This document shows positions 55,622 through 60,476 of a DNA stretch of 64,000 nt, piece after piece; position 1 is the stretch's first letter; each line of letters starts with the position of its first letter. Position numbers and translations under genes: made by a program. The DNA lies in IMG/VR virus record IMGVR_UViG_3300042391_001456, positions 1 through 64,000 of that record, one strand, 5' to 3'. This stretch comes from a virus. The notes below the pieces were generated by a model. That model saw only the letters and a list, made by a program, of their open reading frames with translations, was not told where the DNA came from and did no database searches.

Positions 55622-55957
55622 ATGAGTAATTATTTATTTGCATATGGTATGTTTAGAGATGCCGCTAGAAACCTTTTAGGAAAACCAAAACACATTGGTA
55701 GAAAAAGTGTATTAGGTACAATGTGGAGAGTAGATCCATTTTACCCAGGTGTTGTTTTAGATGATAAAAATGTAGTTTGGGGTGATTTGTATGAAATTGA
55801 TACAAAAGTTCTTCCAGAATTAGATGAGTTTGAGGGAGAAGAATATTATAGAAGGATTATTAAAACTCAAGATGGTATTGAGTGTTGGATATATGAATGG
55901 ATATTACCCACTACTTCATTTAAAATTATTAAAAGTGGAGATTGGTTAATTAGATAA
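55622..55957 (+). CDS. Gamma-glutamylcyclotransferase (AIG2-like)
   Basis: LFAYG, YPG, VWGDLYEI...L..LDEFEG..Y.R, WIY. Confidence 0.85.
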   Translation: MSNYLFAYGMFRDAARNLLGKPKHIGRKSVLGTMWRVDPFYPGVVLDDKNVVWGDLYEIDTKVLPELDEFEGEEYYRRIIKTQDGIECWIYEWILPTTSFKIIKSGDWLIR

Positions 55958-58500: not shown

Positions 58501-58532
58501 TTTGTATATTTAAAATATTATATATATATTTG
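58501..58532 (+). promoter_or_regulatory. Full Bacteroidota consensus promoter TTTG-N20-TATATTTG for the tmRNA
   Basis: TTTG 58501-58504, TATATTTG 58525-58532. Confidence 0.8.
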
Positions 58533-58554: not shown

Positions 58555-58920
58555 GGGGGCGTCATTAGATTCGCCTAGCAGTGTGTAGGTGGTTATGCAG
58601 GAATCGGGTTTTCATATGTCCGATCAATAAATTATATGATAACGTCGTAAATGGCAAAACAAATGAAGTAGGAACTCGTGAAGATTTAGTAGCGGCCCTA
58701 AACGCAATCAAAGCTGAAGAGCTTGAATTAGTTTAATTAAGAGAAACTAATCAAAAAAATTCTCCGACTGTATCACACAGTAAATGTGAAACCAGAATTG
58801 TTAGAGTGATGGGTTAATTCAACTAACTATTTTGTAAGTTTAGAAAAATTTACTATTCCTGTGAATGAGTAATTACAAACAGCTGATTAGTACACCCGGG
58901 GCGGTTCCGGGTCGCTTCCA
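58555..58920 (+). ncRNA. ssrA: tmRNA
   Basis: Acceptor stem GGGGGCG/CGCTTCC-A with G3.U70; T-arm ACCCGG/CCGGGT; long P2 helix (GCAGGAAT/ATTCCTGT); pk1 (TCGGGT/GTCCGA with TCATAT/ATATGA); tag ORF 58653-58736; terminator follows. Confidence 0.9.
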
Positions 58921-58925
58921 CTAAA

Positions 58926-58954
58926 CAAAGTCCACTTTTAAAGTGGACTTTTTT
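58926..58954 (+). terminator. Intrinsic terminator after the tmRNA
   Basis: AAAGTCCACTTT-T-AAAGTGGACTTTTTT. Confidence 0.85.
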
Positions 58955-58975
58955 GTTTTAAAAAATATAATTTTT

Positions 58976-59467
58976 ATGAGTTCTATTGAAGGTTTTAAAG
59001 GAGAATGGTCATTCTTATCGAATTTTTATCCATGTGAGATTCAATATGATGGATTAACTTATAAAAGTGTAGAACATTTTTATGTTGCTATGAAATTCAA
59101 TAATGAACAAATGATTAATGGGAAACATTATACTATTGGAGATTTTCGAGAAATGATTTCACTCACACCAAGTCCTGGTTTAGTTAAAAAAATTGGTCAA
59201 AAAATTATAATAAGATCTGATTGGGATATCAGAAAATTGAGATTTATGAATTGGGCAATTCGTGAGAAGTTTAAAGATATAAACTTATCAGAACTTCTTA
59301 TTGGCACAGAAGATATGGAATTAGTTGAGTCTAATAATTGGAATGATACTTTTTGGGGAGTTTGTAACGGAAAAGGTAAAAATCATCTTGGTAAAATATT
59401 GATGAAGGTTAGAGATGAGCTAAGAGGTGTTGAGAAAAAAACTGGTTTAGAAGAATTTTTTAATTGA
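58976..59467 (+). CDS. NADAR (YbiA-like) hydrolase
   Basis: FLSNFY, Y.SVEH...A.K, R.DW, KF...L..LL..T...LVE...WND.FWG...G.N.LG.ILM.VR. Confidence 0.92.
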   Translation: MSSIEGFKGEWSFLSNFYPCEIQYDGLTYKSVEHFYVAMKFNNEQMINGKHYTIGDFREMISLTPSPGLVKKIGQKIIIRSDWDIRKLRFMNWAIREKFKDINLSELLIGTEDMELVESNNWNDTFWGVCNGKGKNHLGKILMKVRDELRGVEKKTGLEEFFN

Positions 59468-59522
59468 AACTTATAGTTAAGTTATCTCTATAACTAAAGA
59501 AAAAATAAATATAGAAAGTAAT

Positions 59523-60476
59523 ATGTGCGCAATGATAAGTTATTTTGGTGGTAAGAGTTCAAATGTTTTCCACGAATTTATAAATAAAAAAATACCCAAA
59601 GATGGTAGTATAAAAACCTATTTAGAAGCATTTAGTGGTTCAATGGGTACTTACTTAGATGATGATTCTTTAAAATTTGACACGGTTATCTATAATGATA
59701 AAAACCGTCATCAAGTTAATTTGTATTATTGTTGTTCGAAACCAGAAGAATTTTTACCTTATTTAGAAAATCTTAAAAATACTTTATTAAAGACTGAAGA
59801 AACAGAAGTTTTAAAAAAGTGGGATTTCTATAAAGGTATTTATAAGGAGTATCAAAAGAATGATTTTTTAGATAATACTGATTTCCAAATTGGAGACTTT
59901 GAAAAGGCCGCTATTTATGCTTTTCTTATCACATCCGCTCACAACTCTGTGTACCCACGTGGAGCGGGCTTCAATGGTTACAAAAAAGATAAAGATAGAC
60001 TTAAATTGGAAGTTCTTATTGATAAATTAAAAAAGAACAAATATACAGAGAAGTTACAATCAATCACTGAGTATAATAACATCGATTTTGAAGAACTTAT
60101 TACTAAATATGATAGTGTGGATACTTATATCTATTTAGATCCACCATATGCAAGATTTAACGAAGGTAAAGGAGATGATGATGGTAAGAGATTGTTTTGG
60201 TACGGTTCTGATAAGGATGGTGTATTTGGTCCAGCTTCACATAGAAGACTTTTAGAGTTGATTAAAAAATCAGAAGCTAGATGGTCATTATCATATTACT
60301 ATTTTCCACTTTTAGAAGAGTTATTACCGAGAGATAAATATTTTTGGTTTGAGAAAGAAGTATTTAGAAGCTCTGCACAAGGTGGTAATAATGCCGATCT
60401 TAAAAAAGAACAAGAAAAAGGAGTTGAGTTATTGATATTAAACTACAATCCGGAGACTGGTGAAAAAATAAAGTAG
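59523..60476 (+). CDS. DNA adenine methyltransferase (Dam/D12 class)
   Basis: YFGGKS, EAFSGS, YND, YLDPPY. Confidence 0.9.
   Translation: MCAMISYFGGKSSNVFHEFINKKIPKDGSIKTYLEAFSGSMGTYLDDDSLKFDTVIYNDKNRHQVNLYYCCSKPEEFLPYLENLKNTLLKTEETEVLKKWDFYKGIYKEYQKNDFLDNTDFQIGDFEKAAIYAFLITSAHNSVYPRGAGFNGYKKDKDRLKLEVLIDKLKKNKYTEKLQSITEYNNIDFEELITKYDSVDTYIYLDPPYARFNEGKGDDDGKRLFWYGSDKDGVFGPASHRRLLELIKKSEARWSLSYYYFPLLEELLPRDKYFWFEKEVFRSSAQGGNNADLKKEQEKGVELLILNYNPETGEKIK

What the first reader, a model, noticed from the sequence alone, without database searches (positions are those of the whole stretch)
58555..58920. Phage tmRNA with a long tag lacking the Ala-Ala degron and with an altered T-loop
Seen: after TAAAT the frame GGC(58653)...TAA(58736) encodes GKTNEVGTREDLVAALNAIKAEELELV (27 aa). 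An LVAA is buried mid-tag and the end is acidic ...EELELV. The T-loop is GGCGGTT instead of TTCGANT, there is an extra G4.U pair, and CCA is not encoded, but the G3.U70 alanine determinant is kept. Established: typical tags are about 10 aa and end in ...LAA, which ClpXP recognises. Inference: it frees stalled ribosomes (for example after toxin mRNA/tRNA cleavage) while sparing the products or routing them to another protease. It is expressed from a consensus host promoter. The resume codon is inferred from context.
Basis: partly seen in the sequence, partly recalled or inferred. Interest (0 to 1): 0.72.

Follow-up and report, generated by a model that had tools for sequence, protein, structure and literature searches.

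The report
Divergent megaphage tmRNA with long tag
This giant-phage fragment carries a real ribosome-rescue RNA (tmRNA) gene that standard finders miss; it adds a conserved 27-residue tail to unfinished proteins instead of the usual 9-10, and what happens to those tagged proteins is untested.

Summary
Window 58555-58920 (+) is a one-piece tmRNA gene in a Lak/Mahaphage-like megaphage fragment. ARAGORN and Rfam do not call it.

Across 33 homologues, 96% of 61 proposed base pairs form, against 36-44% when partners are slid. Thirty-eight pairs show compensatory changes. G3:U70 and A73 are invariant.

The tag frame shows coding selection. Third codon positions vary most, indels are only 3 or 6 nt, and 22 of 33 copies have no start codon. 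The stop codon sits in a hairpin loop in 32 of 33 copies.

Tags are 27-30 aa and never end in Ala-Ala; 21 end in Val and 12 in Ala. Thirty-one tmRNAs from the Bacteroidota phylum sample have 9-10 aa tags that all end in AA.

The "altered" T-loop, GGCRGUN, matches the functional alphaproteobacterial type (Rfam RF01849 consensus GGCgGUA), here in an unpermuted gene. Lacking an encoded CCA is ordinary for the host phylum.

All five complete or near-complete relatives encode SmpB, a CCA-adding-type enzyme and a Clp unfoldase; four encode ClpP. None of these genes lies on this contig.

Rescue function is well supported. Whether the tag spares or condemns products is open.

This scan has already followed up the same family on other DNA. 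I class it as a new variant of a known kind.

The parts
58501..58532 (+). Promoter-like region of Bacteroidota type: TTTG (58501-58504), a 20-nt spacer, then TATATTTG (58525-58532), ending 22 nt before the mature 5' end
   Evidence: Sequence. A TAnnTTTG box lies 12-29 nt upstream of the first G in 25 of 33 homologues. That this motif is the Bacteroidota -33/-7 consensus is from memory (Bayley et al. 2000), not tested.
58555..58920 (+). tmRNA gene, one-piece and unpermuted, 366 nt up to discriminator A73; CCA is not encoded
   Evidence: covariation; tag frame.
58555..58561 (+). Acceptor stem, 5' strand GGGGGCG
   Evidence: It pairs with 58913-58919. G1:C, G2:C and G3:U are invariant. Pairs 5 and 6 show compensatory changes (AU:20, GC:8; UA:29, AU:2, CG:1).
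58562..58574 (+). D-loop analogue (UCAUUAGAUUCGC), no stem, with UAG in place of the standard UGG
   Evidence: The A/G at this position tracks T-loop position 55: A with G in 29 sequences, G with U in 3, A with U in 1.
58575..58602 (+). Long helix P2, 5' strand; it pairs with 58857-58890
   Evidence: Twenty-two pairs in three segments, 94-99.6% paired, 14 with changes on both sides (helices 2-4).
58603..58644 (+). Pseudoknot PK1. Stem ATCGG (58603-58607) pairs with CCGAT (58620-58624). The loop GUUUUCAUAUG pairs with 58632-58644.
   Evidence: First stem is 100% paired (helix 5). The second stem can form in most homologues with different sequences, e.g. GUUGUCU/GAGGCAAC, GUUA/UAAC, GUCA/UGAC, GAUAUC/GGUAUC.
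58647..58652 (+). Resume-codon context GUAAAU, with U at -5 and A at -4
   Evidence: All 33 homologues have T at -5 and A at -4. This is the pyrimidine-85/purine-86 rule described for E. coli (PMC8363625). A Chitinophagales tmRNA reads CAAAU|GGC AAU ACA.
58653..58736 (+). Tag reading frame, 27 codons plus TAA: GKTNEVGTREDLVAALNAIKAEELELV
   Evidence: Codon-position entropy is 0.49/0.51/0.83. Gaps in the tag are only 3 or 6 columns. Twenty-two of 33 copies lack any ATG/GTG/TTG between the upstream in-frame stop and the resume codon.
58670..58699 (+). Helix inside the tag coding region: AGG..UCGU pairs with GCGG.CCU
   Evidence: helices 6-7. All four pairs of the inner helix have changes on both sides. 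These changes alter the peptide (TR..AA becomes SN..FA in L038/L027).
58723..58754 (+). Helix 5-like hairpin with the TAA stop codon in its loop
   Evidence: The stop codon is enclosed by a hairpin in 32 of 33 homologues, with varied stem sequences.
58768..58789 (+). Pseudoknot PK2: CUGU/ACAG crossed by UCAC/GUGA
   Evidence: helices 8 and 9. All four pairs of the second stem covary (UCAC/GUGA, UCGC/GCGA, UUAC/GUAA, CUAC/GUAG).
58790..58856 (+). Region where PK3/PK4 would lie. Only one hairpin (58836-58841 with 58846-58851) is resolved; the rest is not.
   Evidence: helix 10 (95.8% paired, 4 pairs with double changes). The alignment here is gappy.
58894..58912 (+). T arm: a 6-bp stem (ACCCGG/CCGGGU) and a 7-nt loop GGCGGUU
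   Evidence: All six pairs covary (helix 11). Loop census: GGCAGUA 11, GGCAGUG 7, others. It matches the RF01849 consensus GGCgGUA.
58913..58920 (+). Acceptor stem 3' strand CGCUUCC plus discriminator A; followed by CUA
   Evidence: 3' flanks in the family: CAA 23, CTA 9, CCA 1.
58927..58961 (+). Intrinsic terminator: an 11-bp hairpin followed by a T run
   Evidence: A stable hairpin lies just downstream in all 33 homologues, most followed by a T run.

Best explanation
The stretch is a functional phage ssrA gene encoding a one-piece tmRNA.

Shown by sequence: it is its own transcription unit, with a Bacteroidota-type promoter, a leader of about 22 nt and a terminator.

Inferred steps:
- The precursor is trimmed. 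CCA is added by a CCA-adding enzyme, either the host's or the one that complete relatives encode.
- Host AlaRS charges the RNA with alanine through the invariant G3:U70/A73.
- The RNA is bound by the phage's own SmpB, which is found in complete relatives but not on this fragment.
- The complex enters ribosomes stalled on broken or stop-less mRNAs.
- Translation resumes at GGC (58653). It adds Ala plus 27 residues and stops at a TAA held in a hairpin loop, which releases the ribosome.

The elbow uses the alphaproteobacterial-type D-loop/T-loop pair (UAG with GGCRGU) instead of the standard UGG with UUCRA.

The benefit to the phage is probably to keep ribosomes available during a long infection, or after nuclease-based defence. 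The tag most likely still marks products for a Clp-type protease, but this last step is the least certain.
For: Structure:
- 61 pairs are 96% paired, 38 with compensatory change, and 0 of 500 shuffles match.
- G3:U70 is present in 33 of 33 sequences.
- PK1 and PK2 are supported.
- The stop codon lies in a hairpin loop in 32 of 33 copies.

Translation of the tag:
- Third-position entropy is 0.83 against 0.49 and 0.51, with 3n-only indels.
- The frame has no start codon in 22 of 33 copies.
- U(-5)A(-4) precedes the resume codon in 33 of 33 copies (rule from PMC8363625).

Elbow: GGCgGUA is the RF01849 consensus and occurs in phage Melnitz tmRNA. D-loop and T-loop co-vary.

Partners in relatives:
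- SmpB is present in 5 of 5 complete or near-complete relatives and in 2 further contigs. It is full length with its C-terminal tail.
- No canonical tmRNA scores above the cut-off in the two complete genomes.
- A CCA-adding-type enzyme is in 5 of 5, a Clp unfoldase of about 710 aa in 5 of 5, and ClpP in 4 of 5.
- A clear AlaRS gene was found in none of the 5; W02 has only a 292-aa fragment-like ORF. This fits strict retention of host identity elements.

Promoter and terminator are conserved.
Against: - There is no expression, processing, charging or tagging data.
- ARAGORN and Rfam RF00023 do not recognise it.
- The 6-bp T stem gives a 13-bp acceptor/T stack, against 12 bp in standard tmRNA. 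Whether EF-Tu accepts that is unknown.
- G54 and G55 cannot carry the usual m5U and pseudouridine modifications.
- PK3/PK4 are not resolved.
- This contig carries no SmpB, CCA enzyme or Clp unfoldase. It is only 18% of a genome, so the absence is uninformative.
- No tag ends in Ala-Ala, so the degron step is conjecture.
Confidence: 0.8

Rival explanations
1. Rescue without destruction. The RNA frees ribosomes, but the long tag is not a degron. It spares products from host ClpXP, or serves another purpose such as a handle for a phage factor.
For: - None of the 33 tags ends in Ala-Ala, whereas 31 of 31 host-phylum tags do.
- The most conserved part is internal (EVGTREDLVAAL), not the C-terminus.
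- Part of that conservation is RNA structure rather than peptide (helices 6-7).
Against: - Every tag still ends in Val or Ala preceded by mostly aliphatic or small residues, the general character of C-terminal degradation signals.
- Relatives encode ClpP and a Clp unfoldase.
- Coding selection extends to the last codons.
Confidence: 0.2
2. Decoy or inhibitor. The RNA competes with host tmRNA for AlaRS, SmpB, EF-Tu or stalled ribosomes to shut down host quality control, and does not itself tag proteins. The TLD-only form of mycobacteriophage DS6A is reported to behave this way.
For: - The DS6A form is reported to inhibit endogenous tmRNA when expressed in E. coli (PMC11915505).
- The elbow and T stem here differ from the host type.
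Against: - The tag frame is under clear coding selection with 3n-only indels.
- The resume context follows the rule.
- The stop codon is placed in a helix 5-like loop.
- The phages carry their own full-length SmpB.
Confidence: 0.05
3. Non-functional remnant. It would be a decaying copy of a captured host tmRNA gene, or the leftover of an integration site in ssrA.
For: - Standard tools do not recognise it.
- Phage and island integration into ssrA is common (PMC11915505).
Against: - It is full length, with its own promoter and terminator.
- Thirty-eight pairs are kept by compensatory change across diverged copies.
- It is conserved in megaphage contigs of many samples.
- No homologue was found in 401 Bacteroidota genomes.
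Confidence: 0.02
4. An ordinary small protein gene (the 51-aa ORF 58581-58736) or an unrelated structured RNA.
For: In this window the frame is open from a GTG at 58581.
Against: - Upstream of GGC the frame is not conserved. Gaps there are of 1-2 nt, and 22 of 33 copies have no start codon.
- The termini form an Ala-type acceptor stem with a T arm.
Confidence: 0.01

Closest known systems
Standard one-piece bacterial tmRNA (SsrA, Rfam RF00023) with SmpB, e.g. the Bacteroidota genes sampled here (L235-L264, L218)
   Same: - Gene order and overall architecture: acceptor stem, stemless D-loop, long P2, PK1 before the resume codon, start-less tag frame, stop codon in helix 5, PK2, T arm.
- G3:U70 and A73.
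- Most family members share acceptor stems found in Bacteroidota genes (GGGGAUG/CAUCUCC, GGGGGUG/CACCUCC); the window itself has GGGGGCG/CGCUUCC.
- Resume context AAAU|GGC AAx ACA, as in a Chitinophagales gene.
- A 3' flank CAA rather than CCA in most genes.
   Different: - T-loop GGCRGUN instead of UUCRANU.
- D-loop UAG instead of UGG.
- A 6-bp T stem instead of 5 bp.
- A tag of 27-30 aa instead of 9-10 aa, ending in Val or Ala but never Ala-Ala.
- An extra covarying helix inside the tag.
- No RF00023 match at all, against 105-186 bits for the cellular genes.
Alphaproteobacterial two-piece (permuted) tmRNA, Rfam RF01849; the example read here is phage Melnitz ssrA (MZ577097)
   Same: The same elbow. 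The consensus T-loop is GGCgGUA (GGCAGUA in Melnitz), and the D-loop reads UAGG rather than UGG.
   Different: - Those genes are circularly permuted and mature into two pieces. This one is unpermuted, with a single promoter and terminator.
- Their T stem is 5 bp.
- The Melnitz tag is 14 aa and ends ALAA.
- RF01849 does not match the window.
Other phage tmRNAs: phage G (tag AKLNITNNELQVA), mycobacteriophage DS6A (TLD-only form), and tmRNA/SmpB reported in huge phages
   Same: - tmRNA and SmpB genes in very large phages are already reported (Al-Shayeb et al. 2020).
- One study found tmRNA genes in about 2.3% of phage genomes (PMC9004378).
- The phage G tag also ends in VA rather than AA (PMC12484599).
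   Different: - Those were found with ARAGORN, which does not find this family, even in the two complete megaphage genomes LR756502 and LR745206.
- The tag here is about twice as long.
Mycoplasma tmRNA with a long tag of about 27 aa degraded by Lon (recalled from Gur and Sauer 2008; not checked here)
   Same: A precedent for a long tag with a non-LAA ending that is still a degron, read by a different protease.
   Different: The lineage and tag sequence are unrelated, and the T-loop there is standard. The comparison rests on memory only.

Membership tests
tmRNA (SsrA), as a functional class | The 5' and 3' ends pair into a 7-bp acceptor stem | tested here: met
   99.6% of cells are paired, with two pairs showing compensatory change (helix 1).
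tmRNA (SsrA), as a functional class | Alanine identity: G3:U70 wobble pair and discriminator A73 (PMC3968760) | tested here: met
   GU is present in 33 of 33 sequences and A73 is invariant.
tmRNA (SsrA), as a functional class | T stem-loop plus a reduced, stemless D-loop that interact | tested here: met
   All six T-stem pairs covary. The loop is of the RF01849 type. D-loop A/G tracks T-loop position 55, but this rests on only two or three independent changes.
tmRNA (SsrA), as a functional class | Internal reading frame without a start codon, ending in a stop, and translated | tested here: met
   Translation is inferred from the substitution and indel pattern, not observed.
tmRNA (SsrA), as a functional class | Pseudoknot PK1 just upstream of the resume codon, and the stop codon in helix 5 | tested here: met
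tmRNA (SsrA), as a functional class | Further pseudoknots PK2-PK4 | tested here: inconclusive
   PK2 is supported. The PK3/PK4 region shows one hairpin and is otherwise unresolved. These pseudoknots are dispensable in some active tmRNAs (PMC3968760).
tmRNA (SsrA), as a functional class | 3'-terminal CCA | not testable with these tools
   It is not encoded here (CTA). The same holds for 24 of 31 cellular comparison genes. Post-transcriptional addition cannot be seen in DNA.
tmRNA (SsrA), as a functional class | Dedicated partner protein SmpB in the same genome | tested here: inconclusive
   SmpB is absent from this 102.7-kb fragment. It is present in 5 of 5 complete or near-complete relatives and in 2 further contigs.
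tmRNA (SsrA), as a functional class | Aminoacylation, ribosome entry and tagging activity | not testable with these tools
   This requires biochemistry.
Rfam RF00023 (tmRNA) / ARAGORN tmRNA call | Score at or above the gathering threshold (47 bits), or an ARAGORN hit | tested here: not met
   No hit even at E <= 10. ARAGORN finds none in the window or in 123 loci. Positive controls work.
Alphaproteobacterial two-piece tmRNA (RF01849) | Circularly permuted gene order | tested here: not met
   The 5' acceptor strand is at the start of the gene and the T arm at its end. There is one promoter and one terminator.
Alphaproteobacterial two-piece tmRNA (RF01849) | T-loop GGCRGUA with a UAG-type D-loop | tested here: met

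The most novel reading that the evidence does not exclude
The phage tmRNA and phage SmpB form a rescue pair that is orthogonal to the host's. The alpha-type elbow and 13-bp acceptor/T stack would be read preferentially by the phage SmpB. The long conserved tag would be a private degron or handle for the phage's own Clp unfoldase and ClpP. The phage would then clear stalled ribosomes, for example after defence nucleases cut mRNA or tRNA, without depending on or saturating host ClpXP.
Probability: 0.2. Interest if true: 0.75.

Novelty: new variant of a known kind. Interest (0 to 1): 0.55.

Why it matters
- Annotation gap: surveys that rely on ARAGORN or Rfam list these megaphages as having SmpB but no tmRNA. 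That understates how complete their translation toolkit is.
- Natural experiment on the tmRNA elbow: the family puts an alpha-type D-loop/T-loop pair in an unpermuted gene, with one extra T-stem pair.
- Natural experiment on tag design: the tag is three times the host length, never ends in Ala-Ala, and part of its sequence is dictated by an RNA helix.
- Testable biology: if the tag is read by the phage's own Clp machine, this would be a virus-encoded protein quality-control pathway that can be tested in Bacteroides.

Tried and rejected
- ARAGORN on the window, on the two GenBank relatives and on all fetched loci found nothing.
- Rfam at gathering threshold and at E <= 10 found no tmRNA family. 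On the 57-nt T-arm piece alone there was a 10-bit, E = 0.94 match to RF04321, which is not significant.
- Single-sequence folding gave z = -0.97, which is uninformative.
- A column-wise helix search for pseudoknots was too noisy in the gappy regions. I replaced it with per-sequence duplex and hairpin checks.
- A helix register I first guessed inside the distal tag was wrong. Hairpins there shift register between subgroups, so I do not claim them.
- Alternative resume frames were rejected. The +1 frame (GCA AAA CAA AUG AAG UAG) would give a 5-aa tag, but it does not explain the third-position variation and 3n indels that continue for more than 20 further codons.
- Stop-codon recoding is not evident in this window. 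Coding coverage is 91% under the standard code, and TAG=Q adds nothing.
- Several attempts to check the alpha-type T-loop failed: papers were not held, a supposed alphaproteobacterial MAG and its class gave no RF01849 hits, and a text search for GGCRGUA gave no papers. It was finally settled with phage Melnitz and the RF01849 consensus.
- tblastn of SmpB, CCA-enzyme and Clp unfoldase from relatives against the whole 102.7-kb contig gave no hits. The ClpP queries in that call were extracted from the wrong strand and say nothing.
- I looked for SmpB residue changes that track the elbow type. I saw only a one-residue loop difference, with n = 1 against 6, which is too thin to claim.

Full report
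OBSERVATION.
- The stretch 58555-58920 begins GGGGGCG and ends CGCTTCC-A. These pair into a 7-bp stem with G3:U70 and a second wobble, G4:U69.
- The T arm is ACCCGG/GGCGGTT/CCGGGT (58894-58912). The discriminator A is followed by CTA.
- The frame from GGC at 58653 to TAA at 58734-58736 encodes GKTNEVGTREDLVAALNAIKAEELELV.
- ARAGORN finds no tRNA or tmRNA in the window. Rfam finds nothing at gathering thresholds, and no tmRNA family even at E <= 10 on 800 nt.

CONTEXT.
- The window is the first 64 kb of a 102,753-bp IMG/VR virus contig estimated to be 18% complete. It has 27% G+C and is well coded under the standard code.
- Neighbouring genes are a prohead protease, a Gp23-type major capsid protein, a GGACT-domain protein, a NADAR protein and a Dam-type methylase.
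- The nearest GenBank records are the unannotated "uncultured phage" genomes LR756502 (642,428 bp) and LR745206 (634,780 bp).
- Their sizes match the >634-kb Mahaphage genomes that Al-Shayeb et al. predicted to replicate in Bacteroidetes (PMC7162821). That identification is my inference.

HOMOLOGUES.
- Two conserved words from a three-way alignment pulled many IMG/VR contigs.
- BLAST with the window RNA matched 49 loci, giving 38 distinct sequences, at 67-81% identity for near-full-length matches.
- I aligned the window with 32 full-length copies (A2).
- No copy was found by BLAST in 401 genomes sampled across the phylum of a Bacteroidia MAG. Only 32-42-nt AT-rich matches appeared.

STRUCTURE.
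- RNAalifold alone recovers the acceptor stem, a long P2 helix, the first stem of PK1 and the T arm.
- I added PK2 and counted a named structure of 61 pairs. Of all cells, 96.0% are paired, against 36-44% when the 3' partners are slid by 1-3 columns.
- Thirty-eight pairs have a change on both sides, and 0 of 500 shuffles reach any of the five measures.
- All six T-stem pairs covary, as do seven of eight pairs in the basal part of P2 and all four in the second PK2 stem.
- The second PK1 stem could not be scored by column. In most sequences it forms between the 5' half of the P3 loop and a segment 10-18 nt downstream, with different sequences in different lineages.
- The tag's stop codon lies in the loop of a hairpin in 32 of 33 copies, as in helix 5 of standard tmRNA.
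- The PK3/PK4 region is not resolved.

TAG FRAME.
Every gap inside the tag is 3 or 6 columns, whereas the flanks are full of 1- and 2-column gaps.
- In 22 of 33 copies there is no ATG, GTG or TTG between the nearest upstream in-frame stop and the conserved GGN/GAC codon. The frame therefore cannot be an ordinary gene.
- All 33 copies have U at -5 and A at -4. This is the pyrimidine-85/purine-86 arrangement that positions the resume codon on SmpB in E. coli (PMC8363625).
- A Chitinophagales tmRNA called by ARAGORN reads CAAAU|GGC AAU ACA (tag GNTQYAMAA). The phage reads GUAAAU|GGC AAA ACA.
- Tags are 27-30 aa. Twenty-one end in Val and 12 in Ala; none ends in Ala-Ala.
- The short +1 frame (AKQMK, stop) is rejected because coding signatures continue for 20 more codons.
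- Part of the conservation is at the RNA level. A helix inside the tag (columns 131-134 with 147-150) covaries at all four pairs and drags the peptide with it.

HOST-PHYLUM BASELINE.
- Among 41 sampled genomes, 37 have an RF00023 hit of 105-186 bits.
- ARAGORN called 31 comparison tmRNAs (30 of these hits plus the Chitinophagales gene L218). Their tags are 9 or 10 aa and all end in AA. Every listed gene has a TTCRAnT T-loop on a 5-bp stem, and most have a GG in the D-loop.
- Only 7 of the 31 cellular tmRNA genes whose 3' ends were read encode CCA. The commonest 3' flank is CAA, the same as in the phage family (CAA 23, CTA 9, CCA 1).
- The missing CCA is therefore ordinary.

THE T-LOOP.
- The family consensus is GGCAGUR: 11 copies of GGCAGUA, 7 of GGCAGUG, and the window's GGCGGUU.
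- The Rfam alpha_tmRNA consensus reads GAC-CCGGG-GGCgGUA-CCCGG-CGcCUCC-ACCA, with a D-loop AAAuAGGAUCGAC. Phage Melnitz ssrA, an alpha-type permuted gene, has GGCAGUA.
- The elbow here is therefore the one used by functional alphaproteobacterial tmRNAs, not a lesion.
- Within the family, D-loop UAG goes with G at T-loop position 55 (29 copies). UGG goes with U (3 copies: L111/L100 and L112). There is one exception, L056. That is only two or three independent events, so it is suggestive at best.
- ARAGORN finds Melnitz as a permuted tmRNA and finds the Bacteroidota genes. I infer it misses this family because it expects the alpha-type loop only in permuted genes. I did not test this by altering the sequence.
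- The T stem has one more pair than either standard or alpha-type genes (A:U in 31 of 32 distinct sequences, C:G once). This gives a 13-bp acceptor/T stack.

TRANSCRIPTION UNIT.
- TTTG (58501-58504) is followed by a 20-nt spacer and TATATTTG (58525-58532), which ends 22 nt before the first G.
- A TAnnTTTG box lies 12-29 nt upstream in 25 of 33 copies. A stable hairpin lies just downstream in all 33 copies, most followed by a T run.
- That TTTG/TAnnTTTG is the Bacteroidota promoter consensus is from memory.

PARTNERS.
- SmpB (Pfam PF01668, 162-183 bits) is encoded in both complete GenBank genomes, in all three IMG/VR relatives rated 95-98% complete, and in two further contigs.
- It is full length, aligns to solved SmpB structures through the C-terminal tail, and keeps aromatic residues at the positions of E. 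coli Tyr24 and Tyr55 (my reading).
- It is at most 50% identical to any cellular SmpB found. The best match is a Bacteroidia MAG.
- The two complete genomes have no RF00023 match above the cut-off, so this RNA is the only candidate partner.
- The same five genomes encode a PolyA_pol/CCA-adding-type enzyme (5 of 5), an AAA_2 Clp unfoldase of about 710 aa (5 of 5) and ClpP (4 of 5, up to three copies).
- A clear AlaRS gene was found in none of the five; W02 has only a 292-aa fragment-like ORF. This fits the strict retention of host alanine identity elements.
- None of these genes is on the present fragment (its ClpP queries were faulty).

MECHANISM AND RIVALS.
- The core claim, a working tmRNA that rescues stalled ribosomes with phage SmpB, rests on the evidence above. 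I put it at about 0.8.
- The fate of tagged proteins is open. Aliphatic C-termini and phage Clp genes favour degradation. The total absence of Ala-Ala, against 31 of 31 host tags, favours something different from host ClpXP recognition.
- A decoy role is unlikely because the tag is under coding selection.
- A relic is excluded by covariation.
- An ordinary ORF is excluded by the missing start codons.

COMPARISON AND NOVELTY.
- tmRNA and SmpB genes in huge phages are already reported, but those tmRNAs were assigned with ARAGORN, which does not see this family.
- The 2025 tmRNA database update searched RefSeq viruses with ARAGORN and an Rfam-based finder, and gives 10 aa as the commonest tag length (PMC11915505).
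- I found no paper describing this family.
- Earlier follow-ups in this scan reached the same reading on other contigs. Their leads on the alpha-type loop and on SmpB/Clp genes were re-tested here and hold.
- I class it as a new variant of a known kind.

LIMITS.
- Everything is comparative sequence analysis. No expression, processing, charging or tagging has been observed.
- The host is inferred.
- The contig lacks the partner genes because it is a fragment.

Noticed in passing
L002:1981-2005, L120:888-912, L122:9130-9155 and nine other loci: A conserved GC-rich hairpin, CCTCACTTCCT(3-9 nt)GGGAGTGAGG, lies just after the tmRNA terminator in 12 related loci. It is absent from this window. It could be a second terminator or a small element.
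   Followed up: partly
L111, L100, L098, L112 (alignment A2, tag stop position): Four relatives end the tag with TAG instead of TAA. If those phages read TAG as a residue, as some megaphages are said to, their tags would run on. The window itself shows no sign of recoding.
   Followed up: partly
L107:775-1147 and its 3' flank: This is the only family member that encodes CCA after the discriminator.
   Followed up: no
window 58670-58699 and A2 columns 125-154: An RNA helix inside the tag coding region covaries, and the compensatory changes alter the peptide (TR...AA becomes SN...FA). Part of the tag sequence is therefore set by RNA structure.
   Followed up: partly
Tags of L060, L113, L122 and others: The 29-aa tags look like two similar halves (...REDLVAA / ...VEDLATV). 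This suggests an internal duplication or a read-through extension of a shorter tag that once ended in VAA. I made no statistical test.
   Followed up: no
LR756502 (W01) 364599-365000 and 367597-368013: A third, weaker ClpP-like ORF (94 bits) lies about 2.6 kb upstream of smpB in this complete relative.
   Followed up: no
LR745206 (W02) 368019-368711 (L265): A 292-aa ORF matches only parts of the alanyl-tRNA synthetase catalytic family (55 bits). It could be a fragment or a stand-alone domain.
   Followed up: no
Phage SmpB alignment: SmpBs of phages whose tmRNA T-loop has the non-standard G at position 54 (GGCAGUR, and L111's GUCAGUG) have one extra residue in the loop before the ...H(D/E)xxR(D/E)KKLLL motif. 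The phage whose tmRNA has a UUCGUC loop (L056 contig) has the bacterial-length loop with LNHD. With n = 1 against 6, relatedness is a confound.
   Followed up: partly
window 55622-55957 and 58943-60476: A GGACT (gamma-glutamyl cyclotransferase-like) gene sits just after the capsid gene. A NADAR-domain gene and a Dam-type methylase follow the tmRNA gene.
   Followed up: no
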